Source of the DNA: Clostridia bacterium
GTDB lineage: Bacteria > Bacillota > Clostridia > Christensenellales > CAG-138
DNA length: 64,000 bases
Assembly: GCA_030533005.1 (NCBI GenBank)
Contig: JAUNJX010000007.1
Location: 1,166-65,165, forward strand
Reading direction: 5' to 3'
The position numbers and the translations under genes are program-made. Position 1 is the stretch's first letter; every line of letters starts with the position of its first letter. Below the pieces are notes generated by a model. That model saw only the letters and a program-made list of their open reading frames with translations, was not told the DNA's origin and ran no database searches. Below, in pieces: positions 7,178 to 49,746 of the stretch.

Positions 7178-8224
7178 ATGAAGAAACACATTGCGATTCT
7201 CCTCGTTGCTTTGATGGCGCTCTCCCTCGTTGCCTGCGCCGCTCCCGCCCCCGCCGCCGCTCCCGCTGCGCCCGCAGCCGAGCCCGCCCCTGCTGCCGCC
7301 GAGCCTGCCGCTCCCGCAGCTGAGCCCGCTCCCGCCGCCGAAGGCCCCATCAAGGTCGGCATCATCAACAACGACCCCAACGAGTCCGGCTATCGTACCG
7401 CCAACGACAAGGATATGAAGGCCACCTTCACCGCGGAAAACGGCTATGACGCGTCCTTCGCTTACAGCCTGAAGAACGACGAGCAGATCGCCGCCGCACA
7501 GAAGTTCATTCAGGACGAAGTCGATTATCTTCTGATCTCCGCTGCCGGCACCTCCGGCTGGGATTCCGTGCTGCAGGACGCACAGGCCGCCGGCATCAAG
7601 GTCATCCTGTTCGACCGCACCATCGACGCTGACGTAAGCCTGTATGAAGCTTCCATCGTTTCCGACATGGCGCTTGAAGGCAAGACCGCCGTTGATTGGC
7701 TAGCCACGCAGGGTCTTAGCGAGTACAACGTGATCCACATTCAGGGCGTTATGGGTTCCTCCGCACAGATCGGCCGTACCGGCGCGCTGGACGAAATGGT
7801 CGCCGCCAATGCCAACTGGACGCTCGTGACCCAGCAGACCGCCGAGTGGAACGCCGAGACCGCGCAGCAGATCGTGCAGGCCGTCATCGACTCCGGCAAA
7901 GCCTTCAACGTCATTTATGCTGAGAACGACGACATGGCAAAGGGCGCCGTCGCAGCGCTCGACAAGGCGAACATCTCCCACGGCGTAGGCAAGGACGTTA
8001 TCGTCATGGGCTTTGACTGCAACAAGTGGGCGCTCGAGGAGCTGCTTGCCGGCAACTGGAACTACGACGGTCAGTGCAACCCCTTCCAGGCTTCCTATAT
8101 CGACAGCATCATCAAGGATCTTGAGCAGGGCGTAGCACCCGCCGAGAAGGTCGTCGTCATGGTGGAAAAGGGCTTTGACGCCAGCACCATCACCCAGGAG
8201 GACGTTGACACCTACGGCATCTAA
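7178..8224 (+). CDS. Sugar ABC transporter substrate-binding lipoprotein
   Basis: Lipobox LVAC, Ala/Pro/Glu linker, type I binding-protein fold (NDPNESGYRTAND, AENDDMAKGA, QCNPFQ). Confidence 0.9.
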   Translation: MKKHIAILLVALMALSLVACAAPAPAAAPAAPAAEPAPAAAEPAAPAAEPAPAAEGPIKVGIINNDPNESGYRTANDKDMKATFTAENGYDASFAYSLKNDEQIAAAQKFIQDEVDYLLISAAGTSGWDSVLQDAQAAGIKVILFDRTIDADVSLYEASIVSDMALEGKTAVDWLATQGLSEYNVIHIQGVMGSSAQIGRTGALDEMVAANANWTLVTQQTAEWNAETAQQIVQAVIDSGKAFNVIYAENDDMAKGAVAALDKANISHGVGKDVIVMGFDCNKWALEELLAGNWNYDGQCNPFQASYIDSIIKDLEQGVAPAEKVVVMVEKGFDASTITQEDVDTYGI

Positions 8225-21020: not shown

Positions 21021-21971
21021 ATGCCAAAGGGTGTACGCACCATCGCCATATTGCTTTGCGTGCTTTTGCTGTGCACCGGCTGCACCGCACAGGAGACGCT
21101 TGCCGATGAAAGCCGCGCGCTGTCTGCACTGCGCGTTTGCTATCGCAGCGCCAAGCTGATCGCTACAGGCGTGTGCACGCGGATGTATTACGGCGAAAAC
21201 GGCGCCGTTCTTTCCGAATTTCGTCTTAGCGAGGTGCTTGCTGGACGCGGCGAGCCCGGCGACGTCATCACCTGCGAAACGGAGGCGATGACGCTGCAAG
21301 CGTCCTATTTGTGCTACTTCACTTATGATGCGGCAAACCGGGCGCAGGCCGTCTCTTTGGCGATCTGCCCATGGGATACCGACGCCAACGAAATACAATA
21401 TGAAGAAAGTACCCTCTCCCTCACCGCGGTCCGCGAGGATATGGCGCTTTTGCAAAACGTCATCATTGCGCCGCCTGACACCTGGTACTATGGCAACATC
21501 CTGCAGCTTATGGAGGCGTGCACCGAGGTGTTCATAGGGCGCGTCACACAGGTGCCGGCGCTTGCCGATACGGAATTCCGCGAGGAATCCGGCAGCGCCA
21601 CCATCGAGCATACCATGCCCGCGAGCATCGTTCCCGTCACGGTATACGGCAGCATCAAGGGCACGCTGCGCTACGGCGAGGCCGTCTCCTTCGTCAACGT
21701 ACCCGCCCACGCGGCGGATATGCTGGACGCAGCGACGCTCACCGCCGTGCAGGCTGATGCGGCGTCTCTGCCGGCGCTTCGTGAGGGCGCATTCTGCATT
21801 TTCTTCCTGCTTCGCGGCCCGGACGCCAAGCAGGAAAGCTATTTTTGCGTCAATCCCCTGCAAGGCTTCATCCCCTTGGAGGAGGATATTCTGCTCGTGC
21901 CGCAGGGCAACGAGGCGTTTTCCTCCTGCGCAACGCTGCTGGATTTCCTGCACGCCATACAGAACGTGTAA
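21021..21971 (+). CDS. Hypothetical lipoprotein with an apparent internal duplication
   Basis: Signal peptide with lipobox CTGC; RBS GGAGG; two similar halves (SAKLIATGVC / CTEVFIGRVT). Confidence 0.65.
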   Translation: MPKGVRTIAILLCVLLLCTGCTAQETLADESRALSALRVCYRSAKLIATGVCTRMYYGENGAVLSEFRLSEVLAGRGEPGDVITCETEAMTLQASYLCYFTYDAANRAQAVSLAICPWDTDANEIQYEESTLSLTAVREDMALLQNVIIAPPDTWYYGNILQLMEACTEVFIGRVTQVPALADTEFREESGSATIEHTMPASIVPVTVYGSIKGTLRYGEAVSFVNVPAHAADMLDAATLTAVQADAASLPALREGAFCIFFLLRGPDAKQESYFCVNPLQGFIPLEEDILLVPQGNEAFSSCATLLDFLHAIQNV

Positions 21972-30650: not shown

Positions 30651-31481
30651 ATGTTTGATGCGATGAAAAACTTGGCCGCGGCTCACGGCTTTGCGCGATT
30701 CTACGCGCTGCCTCCCGTCGATCTTTCCCAATGGCGTGAAGATGCAACGAAGGCCTATGTGGGCGTGCAGCTTCCCTATGCCCTGCCCGCGCTGTTCCCT
30801 TGGGCGCGCAGCATACTGCTGCTCGTTTACGCCTACGCGCCTTACCCGCCCGATTGCCGCATCCCAGCTTACTACATTGCCTCCAACCACGCCTATCACG
30901 CGCATAAAGCGCTTGCAAAGCAGATCGCGGCGCTGGGCTGCCGCTGCGAGCCGATCGAACCGCCGCTTCGCGCGCTGTGCCTCGCCTCGGGCGTGGGCGT
31001 CCAGGGCAAAAACGGGCTATTGCGCATCGATCCATTCGGCTCTCGCATCGTGCTGTTTGCGCTGCTTACGGACGGCTGCGCGCCCGTGCCCGTGACCGAC
31101 GCGCCGTCCGTGCCCTGCCCGGAAAGCTGCACAGCCTGCATCAATGCCTGCCCTCCGCACGCCATCCATCCCCACGGCCTGCCCGTATCGCAGATCGTGC
31201 AGGAGGAGTGCATGCGCTATTATATGGACGACGCGCCCTATCCGCCCATCGTGTACAGGTTACAGCAAAAACATATGGGGTGCGAAATCTGCATGGACGC
31301 CTGCCCTTTTAACGCGTGCAACGCGCCGGTAAGTCCCGCCGCTGAAATCAGCGCGGCCTTTGCGCTTCCCCGCCTTGCTTCGGGGGACGATACGGAAGCC
31401 CGCAGGCTTGTTGGAAAGAATATGACGCGCCACGGCAAGCTGACGCTGGAAGCGCAAAATTTCCTTTCCCGCCAAGAATAA
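30651..31481 (+). CDS. QueG-like 4Fe-4S protein (epoxyqueuosine reductase family)
   Basis: GVGVQGKNGLL...FGS; CPESCTACINACP; GCEICMDACPFN. Confidence 0.7.
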   Translation: MFDAMKNLAAAHGFARFYALPPVDLSQWREDATKAYVGVQLPYALPALFPWARSILLLVYAYAPYPPDCRIPAYYIASNHAYHAHKALAKQIAALGCRCEPIEPPLRALCLASGVGVQGKNGLLRIDPFGSRIVLFALLTDGCAPVPVTDAPSVPCPESCTACINACPPHAIHPHGLPVSQIVQEECMRYYMDDAPYPPIVYRLQQKHMGCEICMDACPFNACNAPVSPAAEISAAFALPRLASGDDTEARRLVGKNMTRHGKLTLEAQNFLSRQE

Positions 31482-31484
31482 AGG

Positions 31485-31513
31485 TTGCAATCCCATCCCA
31501 TGCTATGTAAAAT
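31485..31513 (+). promoter_or_regulatory. Sigma-A promoter of SRP RNA
   Basis: TTGCAA, 17 nt, TAAAAT just upstream of the SRP RNA 5' end. Confidence 0.7.
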
Positions 31514-31530
31514 AGAGAACAGTCAGAAAG

Positions 31531-31803
31531 TTTGCCGCGCTAGGCGGGGAGTCAGCGGTGCCCTGTACCTGCAATCCGCTATAGCAGGGCTGAATTCCCG
31601 TGCCGAGGCAAACATCTGTGGGGCTGGTGCCGTCATGCGGTGCTGAGGGCCGGGTCCCGTGCAATCGACGTCTGTGAACCATGTCAGATCCTGACGGAAG
31701 CAGCATTAAGCGGAATCGTCGATGTGCCGCGGGTTTACCTGGCCGGAGCCGTACGCCGGCGTGCCGCCCATGGATGCTTTGTCCAAGCGCGGGTGCGCGG
31801 CAA
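31531..31803 (+). ncRNA. ffs: Large bacterial signal recognition particle RNA (scRNA, with Alu domain)
   Basis: 5' TTTGCCGCGCTAGGCGGGGAGTCAGCGGTGCCCTGTACCTGCAATCCGCT closely resembles Bacillus scRNA; helix-8 GTCAGATCCTGACGGAAGCAGC; 5' TTGCCGCGC pairs with 3' GCGCGGCAA. Confidence 0.93.
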
Positions 31804-31810
31804 TTTATTT

Positions 31811-31977
31811 TCGGCCAAGATCAAATGATCTTGGCCGATGTTTTTCCTCATTTTGACTATGCCCTGTGGGCATGGCCGTCAAAACGAGAAAGGGGGCGGC
31901 CACATGGGCCTATCCGTTCCATCGGCAAAGCCGATGGAGCCGGAATATAGTCAAGGGGACTGCCCCTTGACAATCCC
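31811..31977 (+). repeat. Five-hairpin non-coding element, diverged copy C
   Basis: Same hairpin order and similar length as copies A and B; shares the terminal AGTCAAGGGG-loop-CCCCTTGACAATCCC and a first hairpin core AAGATC/GATCTT. Confidence 0.65.
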
Positions 31978-32002
31978 CTTGCAATAAAAGGTTTATACAA
32001 AT

Positions 32003-33190
32003 TTATTTTTGTAACTCGCGGATGGCGTCGCCCAATATCTTCATGCCCGCGTCGATCTGCGCTTCGGTGCTGTTGGAATAGTTCAGGCGCATGGTGCGCA
32101 CGCCGCGATCCTTCTCGTAGAAGGGGTCGCCCGCCACCACCAGCAGACCCTTCTTGATGGCGACATTGCCCACGTCCACTGCCTTGACGCCTTCGGGCAT
32201 GGTAGCCCAGATGAACATGCCGCCCTCGGGCTTGGTGTAGGTAGTTCCCTCGGGGAGATATTTATCCATCGCGGCCATCATCACATCCGCCTGATGCTGA
32301 TAGAGCTTCTTGATCTTCTCCATATGCTCGTCCAGATCGTTATCCGCCAAATACTGCGCCAGCACCATCTGGCAGAAGATATTGGTGTGCAGATCCATCA
32401 CCTGCTTATAGGCCATGAGCTTGTCGCGCAGCGCCTTGTTCTTGCAGCACACCCAGCCGATACGCATGCCGGGGGACACGGTCTTGGAGAAGGTGCCCAT
32501 CATGCAGCACTGTTCGCCCAGATAATGCGCGAACGAATAGCCGCCCTCGCCGCGGAAGCGGAGCTCGCCATAGGGGTTGTCCTCGATCATGAGGGTGTTG
32601 CTCTTTTTCATCAATTCCGCCGCCCTTTCGCGGGTCGCCACGGAATAGGTAAGACCCGTGGGGTTTTGGAAATTGGGGATGGCGTAGAAGAAGACCGGCT
32701 TGACGTTTTGCAGGATATCCGCAAGCTCGTCGCAGTTGCAGCCCGCTTCGGTCAGCTCTACGGTGTGCACGGTGGGATCGTACAGATGGAAGGTCTGCAG
32801 CGCGGCCAAATAGCTCGGGCGCTCCAAAAGAATGGGATCGCCGGGGTTGAGCATGACGGCAGCGAACATATCCAGCGCCTGCTGCGAGCCGTTGGTAATA
32901 ATGATCTCATCCGCCGTGGCCTCTACGCCAATGCGCGCGTAGCGCTTGGCAATGTACTCGCGCAGCGGCGCATAGCCCGCCGTGGTGCTGTACTGCAAGG
33001 CCTGCACGCCGTTCTTTTCCAAAACCTTCGCAACCGCATCCTCCATTTCATGTATGGGGAAGGATATGGGGTTTGGCAGCCCACCGCCAAAGGAAATGAG
33101 GTCGGGCGACGCTGCGGCTTTGAGTATCGCGTCAACGAACTCGCCTTGGAAATCCGGCTTGGTCATGCGATCTGAGATCTGAAATTGCAT
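32003..33190 (-). CDS. PLP-dependent class I aminotransferase (LysN/ARO8-like)
   Basis: ISFGGGLP, TNGSQQAL, PNFQNPTG, EDNPYGEL, TFSKTVSPGMRIGW. Confidence 0.92.
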   Translation of the reverse strand: MQFQISDRMTKPDFQGEFVDAILKAAASPDLISFGGGLPNPISFPIHEMEDAVAKVLEKNGVQALQYSTTAGYAPLREYIAKRYARIGVEATADEIIITNGSQQALDMFAAVMLNPGDPILLERPSYLAALQTFHLYDPTVHTVELTEAGCNCDELADILQNVKPVFFYAIPNFQNPTGLTYSVATRERAAELMKKSNTLMIEDNPYGELRFRGEGGYSFAHYLGEQCCMMGTFSKTVSPGMRIGWVCCKNKALRDKLMAYKQVMDLHTNIFCQMVLAQYLADNDLDEHMEKIKKLYQHQADVMMAAMDKYLPEGTTYTKPEGGMFIWATMPEGVKAVDVGNVAIKKGLLVVAGDPFYEKDRGVRTMRLNYSNSTEAQIDAGMKILGDAIRELQK

Positions 33191-33425: not shown

Positions 33426-34607
33426 TTAGCAAAGCTCGTTAAGAACCTCGCCCAAGCGCTTCACGCCCTCGACGATCTTCTCGTCGGGCATGGCGGAATA
33501 GTTCATGCGGAAATGGTTGGCGTTGCCGCCGTTGGGATAGAAGGGCTCGCCCGCGACAAAAGCCACCTTCTTTTCCATGGCCTTTTTGAACACGTCGGTG
33601 GAATCCATGCCCTCGGGCAGCGTGACCCAGAGGAACAGACCGCCGTTGGGGTAGGTGTAGGAAACGTTCTTGGGGAAGTATTTCTTCATCGCGTCCACCA
33701 TCACGTCCCTTCTGCCTCGATACACCTCGATGATCTTCTTGATATGCTCGTTGATCTCATACATATCGAAGAATACGGCGCACTCGCGCTGGGCAATGGT
33801 GCTGCACTGAAGATCCGCGCCCTGCTTGATAAGGTTGAACTTGTTAAGTATGGCGGGGGCTGCATAGATCCAGCCGATACGCATGCCGGGGCAGAAGATC
33901 TTGGACATGGTGCCAAGATAGATCACGCGATCCTCGGTGTCAAAGCTCTTGATGGCGGGATGGATCTCACCCTCAAAGCGAAGCGAACCGTAGGGATTGT
34001 CCTCCACGACGCAAACATCGTACTTGTTGGCAAGCTCAACGAGCTTTTTCCGTCTTTCGATGGTCATGGTGCGGCCGGTGGGGTTCTGGAAATCGGGAAT
34101 GGTATAGATAAACTTGACGTTTTCGTTGGCACGAAGCGCCTCCTCCAGCTTATCCATGAGCATGCCTTCCTCGTCCATCTCCACCTCGACGAACTTGGGC
34201 TCATACGCCTTAAAGGCATTGAGCGCGCCAAGATAGCTGGGGCTTTCGGTGATGACCACATCGCCGGGATTGACGAAAAGCTTGGCGCAGAAGTCAAGCC
34301 CCTGCTGGGAGCCTGCGGTGATGAGAATGTCCGCGGGATCGGCCTTGAAGCCCTGCGGCTCCATCAGCTTGCAGATGTGCTCGCGCAGCGGCAGGAAGCC
34401 CTCGGTGGAGCTATATTGCAGCGCCTTGCGGCCGTCCTCCTCAAGCACCTTCTTGCTTACGATCTCCATGCCCTCCACGGGGAAAAGCTCGGGCGCGGGA
34501 AAACCGCCCGCGAAGGAGATAACGTCGGGCTTATCGGCAATTTTGAGAAGCTCGCGGATGGCGGAACCCTTAAGTCCATCCATTCTGGATGCAAATTGTA
34601 TGGCCAT
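33426..34607 (-). CDS. PLP-dependent class I aminotransferase (LysN/ARO8-like)
   Basis: SAIRELLK, ISFAGGFP, PDFQNPTG, TMSKIFCPGMRIGW; RBS AGGAGG before MAIQ. Confidence 0.92.
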   Translation of the reverse strand: MAIQFASRMDGLKGSAIRELLKIADKPDVISFAGGFPAPELFPVEGMEIVSKKVLEEDGRKALQYSSTEGFLPLREHICKLMEPQGFKADPADILITAGSQQGLDFCAKLFVNPGDVVITESPSYLGALNAFKAYEPKFVEVEMDEEGMLMDKLEEALRANENVKFIYTIPDFQNPTGRTMTIERRKKLVELANKYDVCVVEDNPYGSLRFEGEIHPAIKSFDTEDRVIYLGTMSKIFCPGMRIGWIYAAPAILNKFNLIKQGADLQCSTIAQRECAVFFDMYEINEHIKKIIEVYRGRRDVMVDAMKKYFPKNVSYTYPNGGLFLWVTLPEGMDSTDVFKKAMEKKVAFVAGEPFYPNGGNANHFRMNYSAMPDEKIVEGVKRLGEVLNELC

Positions 34608-34705
34608 GGCTGGTGATCCTCCTATATGATGATTATGATGTTGTCTTTTGTTGGCAAAAGATGATATTGACAAAATGATGGAAAGGATATGGGCTTGTAA
34701 CGCAT

Positions 34706-40939: not shown

Positions 40940-40971
40940 AAAGGCGTACGGAGGGATTCCGTACGCCTTTT
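40940..40971. terminator. Bidirectional terminator, left copy of a 32-bp direct repeat
   Basis: AAAGGCGTACGGAGGGATTCCGTACGCCTTTT. Confidence 0.85.
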
Positions 40972-41171
40972 AGCTTATCGACAAAGGTCATTCGACCTTT
41001 GTCGATGGTTACAATTTGCAACTGTTCGCTACTCTCACGGTCGTTGCAAATTGCAGAGAAACCCTTGCTGCGCAAGGCCTTCCGCCCTCACCGCACATGT
41101 CGCTTCGGGCGGTTGAAAGTCAAGGGGTTTCGACCCCTTAACAATCCCTAAGGGGGTTTGTCGATGGTCTG
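40971..41171 (+). mobile_element. Putative MITE (~200 bp) carrying five-hairpin element copy A
   Basis: Imperfect inverted ends TAGCTTATCGACAAA / TTTGTCGATGGTCTG; flanked by identical 32-bp repeats; interior homologous to 49569-49738. Confidence 0.7.
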
Positions 41172-41203
41172 AAAGGCGTACGGAGGGATTCCGTACGCCT
41201 TTT
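41172..41203. terminator. Bidirectional terminator, right copy of the 32-bp direct repeat
   Basis: Identical to 40940-40971. Confidence 0.85.
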
Positions 41204-49504: not shown

Positions 49505-49568
49505 CAAATTCGTACATGAACTCATGCGTACAGTATAAGCATAACTGTTTTAACGTAACCATAGCTTC

Positions 49569-49738
49569 GGGATTGTCAAGGGGCCGCGGCTCCTTGACTT
49601 CCAACCGCCCGAGGCGACATGTGCGGTGAGGGCGGAAGGCATTGTTTTGCAATGCCCTCTTTGCAATTTACAACGACCGTGAACGATAGGGAACAGTTGT
49701 AAATTGTAATCTCAGGCAAGGTCGCAGACCTTGCCTGA
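49569..49738 (-). repeat. Five-hairpin non-coding element, copy B
   Basis: Reverse complement aligns with 40977-41148, including the identical core GCCTTCCGCCCTCACCGCACATGTCGC, with compensatory stem changes. Confidence 0.85.
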
Positions 49739-49746
49739 AGAACGCA

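What the first reader, a model, noticed from the sequence alone, without database searches (positions are those of the whole stretch)
31811..31977. Highly diverged third copy of the five-hairpin element directly behind SRP RNA
Seen: 7 nt after the SRP RNA 3' end the same order of stems appears over a similar length. H1 is TCGGCCAAGATC/GATCTTGGCCGA (core AAGATC versus AAGGTC in A and B). H2 is CTCATTTTGAC-TATGCCC...GGGCATGGCC-GTCAAAACGAG. H3 is a short GGCC stem. H4 is TCCG-TTCCATCGGC/GCCGATGGAG-CCGGA. H5 is AGTCAAGGGG/CCCCTTGAC-AATCCC, nearly identical to A and B. Primary sequence is otherwise almost unalignable. Inference: the family is old and conserved at the structure level, H5+AATCCC is the likely recognition end, and H1 with its following T-run may have been co-opted as the SRP terminator.
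Basis: partly seen in the sequence, partly recalled or inferred. Interest (0 to 1): 0.7.

Follow-up and report, generated by a model that had tools for sequence, protein, structure and literature searches.

The report
Mobile five-hairpin repeat behind SRP RNA
The hairpin-rich stretch behind the SRP RNA gene is an old, diverged copy of a small non-coding mobile repeat that this gut-type Clostridia lineage carries in dozens of copies, always facing the same way just behind the end of a gene.

Summary
The five hairpins at 31811-31971 are real (fold z -9.3). A covariance model built only from A/B-type copies matches copy C over its full length (59.8 bits, E 2.5e-16; best unrelated hit 23.9).

C is not a "third copy". 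The model finds about 41 full-length copies in this 2.26 Mb genome, and C ranks 37th. It also finds the family in 13 of 18 sampled genomes of the same family, and patchily across the order.

The middle of C (H2-H4) scores only 3.6 bits against the A/B model. It belongs to a separate subfamily, joined to A/B by intermediate copies.

The family behaves as a mobile, MITE/BIME-like repeat:
- Copies can be near-identical.
- Orthologous sites can be filled or empty.
- Flanking duplications of 17-32 nt are the target's terminator hairpin.
- Polarity is strict: 25 of 47 copies start within 11 nt of a co-oriented stop codon (null 5%).

Stems co-vary heavily, but G·T equals A·C mismatches, so RNA-level selection is not shown. 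No transposase was found. C is shared with two congeners, and its H1 plus T-run is the only terminator-like site behind SRP RNA.

This scan had already noted the repeat family on another contig of this genome.

The parts
31535..31800 (+). Large bacterial SRP RNA gene (ffs). A promoter-like site lies at 31485-31513.
   Evidence: RF01854, 209.2 bits, model positions 1-256; promoter-like hexamers.
31802..31811 (+). Left copy of a 10-nt A/T-rich direct repeat that flanks copy C. It may be a target-site duplication of the T-tract behind SRP RNA, but the evidence is weak.
   Evidence: Flank comparison score 10; the null 95th percentile is 9 and the 99th is 11. Congeners without the element have a similar T-rich run directly behind SRP RNA.
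31808..31980 (+). Copy C of the five-hairpin repeat, as matched by the A/B-trained covariance model.
   Evidence: R1 59.8 bits, E 2.5e-16, model positions 1-177; fold z -9.29.
31811..31838 (+). H1: 12-bp hairpin with a 4-nt loop, followed by a T-run (31840-31845). It is a terminator-like site for SRP RNA.
   Evidence: Only terminator-like site found in 31400-32200. There are three compensatory double changes against the G003 ortholog.
31847..31888 (+). H2: long hairpin with an inner stem-loop at 31858-31874.
   Evidence: pairs co-vary within C's subfamily.
31898..31910 (+). H3: short GGCC hairpin.
   Evidence: 4 pairs, 3 with double changes.
31913..31944 (+). H4: 13-bp hairpin with a conserved GGCAAAGCC apex.
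   Evidence: The G003 ortholog keeps the pairing through several double changes.
31949..31978 (+). H5 hairpin plus the AATCCCC tail, nearly identical to A and B.
31979..31999 (+). Probable degenerate 3' tail of copy C. It corresponds to the 23-nt tail of A-type copies.
   Evidence: By position and weak similarity to the A-type tail. This is an inference.
32000..32009 (+). Right copy of the 10-nt direct repeat. It overlaps the stop codon of the convergent aminotransferase gene (32003-33190, minus strand).
40972..41171 (+). Copy A: a young A-type element, 99.5-100% identical to two other copies and 96.5-98% to two more.
   Evidence: blastn; R1 218.4 bits.
40940..40971 (+). Left copy of the duplicated 32-nt terminator hairpin of the upstream gene. 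This is the target-site duplication of copy A.
   Evidence: Perfect 32-nt direct repeat. Orthologous sites in G001, G003 and G004 have a single terminator and no element.
41172..41203 (+). Right copy of the same 32-nt terminator hairpin. This copy keeps the T-tract.
49566..49741 (-). Copy B: an older A-type element behind a co-oriented gene and its terminator.
   Evidence: R1 169.2 bits; sequence.

Best explanation
Copy C is an old, diverged copy of a lineage-specific family of small non-coding mobile repeats, each about 175-200 nt. Each copy is an ordered array of five palindromic hairpins (H1 to H5).

The family behaves like a non-autonomous MITE/BIME-type element. It multiplies in the genome and lands at the 3' boundary of transcription units in one fixed orientation, with H1 next to the end of the upstream gene. 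In the young copies it sits between a terminator stem and its T-tract, or directly after a stop codon. There it duplicates a variable stretch of 10-32 nt, which is typically the whole terminator hairpin.

Copies then diverge. Both arms of each palindrome change together, and inner modules are exchanged between copies by recombination.

Copy C went into the T-rich stretch just behind the SRP RNA gene before three species of this genus split. Its H1 hairpin with the following T-run now most likely ends SRP RNA transcription.

Shown: multi-copy family, insertion polymorphism, hairpin-sized duplications, polarity, co-variation, module swapping.
Inferred: the cutting enzyme (not identified), that the hairpins matter as DNA rather than RNA, and that H1 terminates transcription.
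For: Membership:
- R1, trained without C, matches C full-length at 59.8 bits.
- C's own subfamily has 7 further loci at 74-80% identity.
- Intermediate copies join the subfamilies.

Copy number and spread:
- 53 hits at E<=0.01, of which 41 are full-length matches of 38 bits or more, in the genome.
- 13 of 18 family genomes have hits and 0 of 12 genomes from other families do.
- 11 of 151 genomes in an order-wide sample have hits.

Mobility:
- Five copies are 96.5-100% identical over 200 nt at unrelated loci.
- The site of copy A is empty in G001, G003 and G004. G002 holds a 14-nt remnant of the element's two ends.
- Another locus is empty in G001 and G004 and filled in G000, G002 and G003.

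Duplications:
- 6 of 47 copies in G000 have flanking direct repeats scoring 17-32, all hairpins. Mismatched flank pairs reach a score of 12 or more in 0 of 432 cases.
- 3 of 19 copies checked in relatives show the same (17, 28 and 32 nt).

Polarity:
- 25 of 47 copies start within -6 to +11 nt of the stop of a co-oriented ORF of at least 120 codons. The figure is 5.1% for random intergenic positions, p 2e-20.
- Reading the element backwards gives 1 of 47.
- Orientation does not follow GC skew: 18 positive, 29 negative.

Hairpins:
- 92.9% of cells are paired and 46 of 52 pairs co-vary; 0 of 500 shuffles reach this.

SRP locus:
- An element sits behind SRP RNA in G000, G003 (88% identical ortholog) and G002. 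G002 has the same H1 and H5 but an H2-H4 of another subtype.
- H1 of C is scored terminator-like.
Against: - No transposase, recombinase or reverse transcriptase could be tied to the family. Y1_Tnp and RVT_1 are not found in this 85%-complete genome. Among five element-rich relatives, 2 of 5 have Y1_Tnp and 1 of 5 has RVT_1.
- Only 9 of the 66 copies examined show a clear flanking duplication. The duplication length is unlike that of any classical transposase.
- The strict gene-end polarity and the conserved order of hairpins could equally reflect a function in the transcript.
- The middle of C is not recognised by the A/B model on its own (3.6 bits). Its homology there rests on transitive links.
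- The alignment used for pair counts was fitted to the model, which favours pairing.
- The 10-nt repeat around C is within the range of chance.
- Termination at H1 is a consensus match only. The shuffles give 0.9 such sites per region.
Confidence: 0.7

Rival explanations
1. The family is a functional structured RNA. It would be a cis-acting 3'-UTR module, or an sRNA processed from the ends of mRNAs and of SRP RNA. Its five helices would be kept by selection on the transcript, for example as a terminator, a 3'-end protector, or a stop-codon-proximal hairpin that affects terminating ribosomes.
For: - Orientation is fixed relative to the upstream gene and is independent of the replication strand.
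- H1 begins within the footprint of a terminating ribosome in 25 of 47 copies.
- 13 of 44 H1 hairpins are followed by at least 5 T in 8 nt.
- Co-variation is heavy in all five helices.
- Loop and junction sequences are conserved.
Against: - In stems, G·T/T·G (73) and A·C/C·A (65) mismatches are equally frequent. Selection on an RNA of one strand should favour G·U strongly.
- There are dozens of copies, some identical, with presence/absence differences between species and flanking duplications.
- Modules are freely swapped or deleted.
- No Rfam family matches.
- Where H1 has a T-run, H2-H5 would lie behind a terminator.
Confidence: 0.15
2. Copy C is unrelated to A and B and merely shares one REP-like hairpin (H5) with them.
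For: The stretch 31840-31947 (H2-H4) scores only 3.6 bits with the A/B-trained model. blastn of C against the genome finds A-type copies only through the 30-33 nt of H5.
Against: - The model aligns C end to end (59.8 bits), with H1 also matching. H1 alone scores 17.9 bits on the reverse read.
- The order and spacing of the hairpins are the same.
- The G002 ortholog at the same site has C's H1 and H5 around an A-like H2 and scores 118 bits.
- Intermediate copies link the H2, H3 and H4 variants.
Confidence: 0.03
3. The repeats are non-autonomous derivatives of a known single-strand DNA transposon system. They would be REP/BIME elements moved by a RAYT, or IS200/IS605-type palindrome-associated elements moved by a Y1 HUH transposase that recognises the hairpins.
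For: - The elements are built of hairpins, and solo H1 hairpins are scattered in the genome.
- The apex of H1 (GGTC, loop, GACC) is conserved.
- A single Y1_Tnp gene is present in 2 of 5 element-rich relatives.
Against: - Y1_Tnp was not found in G000 or in 3 of 5 element-rich relatives, two of which are 94-95% complete.
- These systems insert without target duplication (recalled), whereas young copies here have 17-32 nt duplications.
- Orientation does not follow the replication strand as judged by GC skew.
Confidence: 0.1

Closest known systems
REP sequences and BIMEs of Enterobacteria and Pseudomonas
   Same: Both are extragenic palindromic hairpins present in many copies. They are assembled into mosaic arrays, lie in 3' untranslated regions often close to stop codons, and turn over quickly between relatives.
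   Different: - Here the unit is a fixed order of five different hairpins of about 175-200 nt.
- It has one strict orientation behind genes.
- Young copies carry 17-32 nt duplications of the target hairpin.
- No RAYT was found in this genome.

The properties of REP/BIME given here are recalled, not tested.
Pneumococcal BOX, RUP and SPRITE repeats (bacterial MITEs)
   Same: All are small non-coding repeats that fold into stable stem-loops. BOX is modular and SPRITE is terminator-like. They are intergenic and sometimes insert into one another (passages of PMC10969869 seen).
   Different: No sequence relation was tested. Classical MITEs have terminal inverted repeats and short duplications of fixed length. 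This family has only a 9-nt subterminal inverted repeat, and its duplications vary from 10 to 32 nt.
Group IIC introns that home behind intrinsic terminators
   Same: Both seek the stem-loop of a rho-independent terminator and sit just downstream of it, in the orientation of the transcript. This property of group IIC introns is recalled.
   Different: The element is far too small for a group II intron and has no domain-V-like hairpin. It duplicates the hairpin. No reverse transcriptase was found in G000 or in 4 of 5 element-rich relatives.

Membership tests
The A/B five-hairpin repeat family of this genome | Full-length match to a covariance model trained on A/B-type copies only | tested here: met
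   59.8 bits, E 2.5e-16, model positions 1-177; the next unrelated hit scores 23.9 bits.
The A/B five-hairpin repeat family of this genome | Inner hairpins H2-H4 recognisably homologous | tested here: inconclusive
   Directly, 31840-31947 scores 3.6 bits. Indirectly the feature is met. C's subfamily shares H3/H4 variants and loops with copies that score 63-106 bits. The G002 ortholog carries an A-like H2 between C's H1 and H5.
The A/B five-hairpin repeat family of this genome | 5' end directly behind the end of a co-oriented gene | tested here: met
   C starts 7-10 nt behind the co-oriented SRP RNA gene. For the family, 25 of 47 copies lie within 11 nt of a stop codon.
Classical bacterial MITE | Terminal inverted repeats | tested here: inconclusive
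   A-type copies have a 9-nt inverted repeat of the H1 arm, 4-6 nt inside each end. None is recognisable in copy C.
Classical bacterial MITE | Short target-site duplication of fixed length | tested here: not met
   The duplications are 13-32 nt and differ between copies.
Classical bacterial MITE | A parent insertion sequence with the same ends | tested here: not met
   Partial blastn hits are solo hairpins, not ends around a gene. The genome is 85% complete, so a parent may simply be unassembled.
REP/BIME with RAYT | A REP-associated Y1 (HUH) transposase in the genome | tested here: not met
   PF01797 gives 0 matches in G000 and matches in 2 of 5 element-rich relatives.
IS200/IS605-derived palindrome-associated element | Insertion without target duplication | tested here: not met
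   9 of 66 copies examined carry clear flanking duplications.
Any curated RNA family (Rfam 15) | Match at the family's gathering score | tested here: not met
   Only SRP RNA passes in the window. The best weak hits on C, A and a long A-type copy are 21.6, 28.2 and 19.2 bits, far below their thresholds.
Intrinsic terminator (H1 of copy C) | G+C-rich stem followed by a T-run | tested here: met
   12 pairs (7 G-C), a 4-nt loop and the tail TGTTTTTCCT.
Intrinsic terminator (H1 of copy C) | Transcripts end there | not testable with these tools
   The public RNA runs held only contigs of relatives' SRP RNA, and nothing lay on 31808 onwards.

The most novel reading that the evidence does not exclude
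The family may be a terminator-seeking non-autonomous element with an undescribed way of integrating. It would be inserted in a fixed polarity at the 3' boundary of transcription units, by cuts on either side of the terminator hairpin (or of the stop-codon region). The whole hairpin would then be duplicated, giving variable duplications of 10-32 nt. The enzyme would be neither a Y1 transposase nor a reverse transcriptase. Polarity could be read from the asymmetric stem-plus-T-tract of the terminator, or from the 3' end of the terminated transcript.
Probability: 0.2. Interest if true: 0.75.

Novelty: new variant of a known kind. Interest (0 to 1): 0.45.

Why it matters
Copy C on its own is an ordinary, decayed member of a repeat family. 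The family itself is more interesting. It fills many gene ends of a group of uncultured gut-type Oscillospiraceae, and it supplies or duplicates terminator hairpins. It follows two rules that classical bacterial repeats do not show together: strict polarity behind gene ends, and target duplications that equal the terminator hairpin.

If the insertion mechanism is new, it would add a mode of target choice to bacterial mobile DNA. If the elements act in transcripts, they would be a widespread 3'-end module.

There are also practical consequences. Such repeats break metagenome assemblies, and hairpin co-variation in them can be mistaken for evidence of a structured RNA.

Tried and rejected
- Rfam. 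The gathering-threshold scan of the whole window, and E-value scans of A, C and a long A-type copy, gave nothing but SRP RNA. A weak Clostridiales-2 hit on the minus strand of C (21.6 bits, gathering score 58.6) was dismissed.
- Expression. The best public RNA runs hold at most 0.13 of the sampled words. Laying four runs gave contigs of relatives' SRP RNA only. Two of them end at 31800/31801 and none lies on 31808-32047. This says nothing about transcription of C.
- A wider model.
- Mobilising enzyme. Y1_Tnp and RVT_1 searches in G000 and in five element-rich relatives gave no consistent partner. Other transposase families were not searched.
- Parent element. A scan of genome contigs for the H1 core found 23 loci. 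18 lie in one Oscillospiraceae MAG, and none shows an element with a gene inside.
- Hairpin arrays behind SRP RNA in G005 and G007. They looked family-like by eye, but R1 gave no hit at E<=0.01 in the G005 locus and only 13.7 bits, on the other strand, in the G007 locus. They were not counted.
- Promoter in H5. It contains TTGACA, but no usable -10 box follows in A or C.
- Group II intron domain V in H4. The bulge and loop do not fit (read from the sequence).
- Earlier scan notes. Look-ups by sequence and by neighbourhood gave nothing.
- Literature. Five full-text searches found no description of this family or of hairpin-sized duplications at terminators.
- A paper on REP sequences near stop codons is recalled only. 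The one hit (PMC5009743) had no passage in its main text.

Full report
**What is at the coordinates**

Rfam places a large bacterial SRP RNA at 31535-31800 on the + strand (209.2 bits). A promoter-like site lies at 31485-31513.
- H1: 31811-31838.
- H2: 31847-31888, with an inner hairpin.
- H3: 31898-31910.
- H4: 31913-31944.
- H5: 31949-31971, followed by AATCCCC.

The fold of 31801-31990 has just these hairpins. Its energy is -97.3 kcal/mol against -56.3 +/- 4.4 for 200 shuffles (z -9.29, 0 of 200 as good). A convergent aminotransferase gene ends at 32003.

**Is it a copy of the A/B element?**

Copies A (about 40972-41171, +) and B (about 49566-49741, -) were found through the H5 motif. I built covariance model R1 from ten A/B-type copies of this genome, leaving C out.

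With filters off, R1 gives A 218.4 bits, B 169.2 bits and C 59.8 bits (E 2.5e-16, model positions 1-177, 31808-31980). The best unrelated hit scores 23.9 bits.

There is a caveat. The middle of C alone (31840-31947) scores 3.6 bits. The direct signal therefore comes from H1, H5, the tail and the spacing.

The middle is tied in by other copies:
- blastn with C finds seven further loci at 74-80% identity over 95-129 nt.
- Within that subfamily, H2, H3 and H4 co-vary: 24 of 42 predicted pairs have double changes, in 13 sequences aligned without the model.
- Some copies mix A-like and C-like modules. G000:C72:51009-51185 scores 106 bits, and C51:16637-16809 scores 63.4 bits.

**Size and spread of the family**

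In the window's own genome (2.26 Mb, 95 contigs, 85% complete), R1 gives 53 hits at E<=0.01. Of these, 41 are full-length matches of 38 bits or more, and C ranks 37th. Five more C-like copies come from blastn alone. I analysed 47 copies in all.

Among relatives:
- 13 of 18 sampled genomes of the same taxonomic family have hits, up to 57 per genome. 0 of 12 genomes from other families do.
- In an order-wide sample scored with stricter filters, 11 of 151 genomes have hits, some of them in other families.
- Record titles returned by a collection scan name an uncultured Oscillospiraceae MAG.

No Rfam family fits.

What I see agrees with it.

**Evidence for mobility**

- Five A-type copies at unrelated loci are 96.5-100% identical over 200 nt.
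- Each of these five is flanked by a direct duplication of 21-32 nt, and that duplication is the terminator hairpin of the upstream gene. For copy A it is the perfect 32-mer at 40940-40971 and 41172-41203. The element sits between the stem and the T-tract.
- In a systematic test, 6 of 47 copies have flank repeats scoring 17-32. None of 432 mismatched flank pairs reaches a score of 12.
- In congeners, 3 of 19 checked copies show the same, with repeats of 17, 28 and 32 nt.
- A solo H1 hairpin has a 13-15 nt duplication that includes the upstream stop codon.
- The site of copy A is empty, with a single terminator, in G001, G003 and G004. In G002 it holds a 14-nt remnant matching the element's first 8 and last 5-6 nt.
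- Another locus is an uninterrupted operon junction in G001 and G004. In G000, G002 and G003 it carries an element directly at the stop codon, and the last codons are altered.

**Polarity**

- 25 of 47 copies start within -6 to +11 nt of the stop codon of a co-oriented ORF of at least 120 codons. For random intergenic positions and strands the figure is 5.1% (p 2e-20).
- Read backwards, only 1 of 47 copies does so. Within 60 nt the counts are 36 against 11.
- Orientation does not follow local GC skew (18 positive, 29 negative; both orientations occur on one contig). It is therefore tied to the gene, not to the replication strand.

Copy C obeys the rule: its H1 faces the end of the co-oriented SRP RNA gene.

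**Hairpins: RNA or DNA?**

Across 62 distinct copies aligned to R1, 92.9% of cells pair and 46 of 52 pairs have double changes. No shuffle of 500 reaches this, and sliding the partners gives 35-50% pairing. That alignment was fitted to the model.

Yet in the stems, G·T/T·G (73) and A·C/C·A (65) mismatches are equally common once two constant wobble positions are set aside. An RNA read from one strand should tolerate G·U far better than A·C. The pattern is symmetric between strands.

This symmetry fits palindromes maintained as DNA. It could arise through template switching within quasi-palindromes, which changes both arms at once; that mechanism is recalled, not tested. It could also reflect very strict selection. 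So I do not take the co-variation as proof of a structured RNA.

**The SRP locus in relatives**

All 41 sampled family genomes have the SRP RNA.

- G003 has an 88% identical ortholog of C behind its SRP RNA. H1 shows three fully compensated changes, and H4 shows several.
- G002 has the same H1 and H5+tail, but an A-like H2 and other H3/H4 variants. R1 scores it at 118 bits.
- G001 and G004 have no element there.
- In the loci of 12 other genera, R1 finds no element behind the SRP RNA.

The insertion is therefore old within the genus, and its interior has been exchanged by recombination in one lineage.

In G001 and G004 a T-rich run follows the SRP RNA directly. In G000 a similar 10-nt A/T-rich string occurs on both sides of C (31802-31811 and 32000-32009). 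The second copy lies where an A-type 3' end would fall. The score of 10 is between the 95th and 99th percentile of the null, so a duplication of the T-tract is possible but not shown.

**Terminator idea**

H1 of C, with its tail, is the only terminator-like site in 31400-32200 (the shuffles give 0.9 per region). G003 has a T-run directly after H1. In the family, 13 of 44 H1 hairpins are followed by at least 5 T in 8 nt, and young A-type copies are not among them. Co-option as the SRP terminator is reasonable but untested; the public RNA data gave nothing on C.

**"Recognition end"**

Only 14 copies carry the H5+AATCCC form; others have a different H5 with a CCCC-rich tail. A-type elements continue about 23 nt past AATCCC to a conserved end containing a 9-nt inverted repeat of the H1 arm. 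Eight solo H1 hairpins were seen against at most one H5-only piece. If any end is recognised, H1 is the better candidate.

**Mobilising enzyme**

None was found. Y1_Tnp and RVT_1 are absent from the assembled G000. Among five element-rich relatives, Y1_Tnp is present in 2 of 5 and RVT_1 in 1 of 5. Other transposase families were not searched, and metagenome bins often lack repeated genes.

**Verdict**

C is a decayed member of a lineage-specific, mobile, hairpin-array repeat family. The closest known kinds are REP/BIME and the pneumococcal BOX/SPRITE type of MITE (passages of PMC10969869 seen; the REP/BIME properties are recalled). The family has two unusual traits: hairpin-sized target duplications and strict polarity behind gene ends. 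Five full-text searches found no description of it.

Noticed in passing
G000:C72:21579-21800, C51:6519-6740, C6:9456-9677, C31:37683-37902, C72:18548-18769, C76:11422-11611: A long subtype of the element carries about 45 extra nt in the loop of H4. The insert is nearly invariant between copies whose other hairpins differ, which suggests a constrained module of unknown role.
   Followed up: partly
G000:C76:13040-13200 (minus strand): A solo H1 hairpin of about 47 nt is flanked by a 13-15 nt direct repeat that includes the upstream gene's stop codon. It sits just before the next gene's ribosome-binding site.
   Followed up: partly
L100 (G002:C5, behind 13366) and L099 (G003:C172): Behind a full element there are tandem arrays of repeated H4-H5 modules, at least three units in G002. 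This is local amplification of part of the element.
   Followed up: no
L084 (G002:C28, about 21290-21325): The site orthologous to copy A holds a single terminator followed by a 14-nt remnant matching the two ends of the element. It could be an excision or deletion scar, or a decayed solo H1.
   Followed up: partly
window 32003-33190 and 33426-34673 (minus strand): Two tandem paralogous class I/II aminotransferase genes. Direct-repeat families with a spacing of 1417-1423 nt reflect their similarity.
   Followed up: partly
window 7238-7338: A G+C-rich imperfect repeat with a 9-18 nt period (six overlapping copies). It is probably a low-complexity Ala/Pro-rich coding stretch.
   Followed up: no
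window 31944-31973 (minus strand): A promoter-like site (10 of 12 hexamer matches) inside H5 of copy C points back towards SRP RNA. A and B have no counterpart, so it is likely chance.
   Followed up: no
L091 (G003:C84): The hairpin duplicated by one young insertion (32 nt, 30 of 32 identical) itself has the H1-type apex. Elements can therefore target hairpins left by earlier family members.
   Followed up: no
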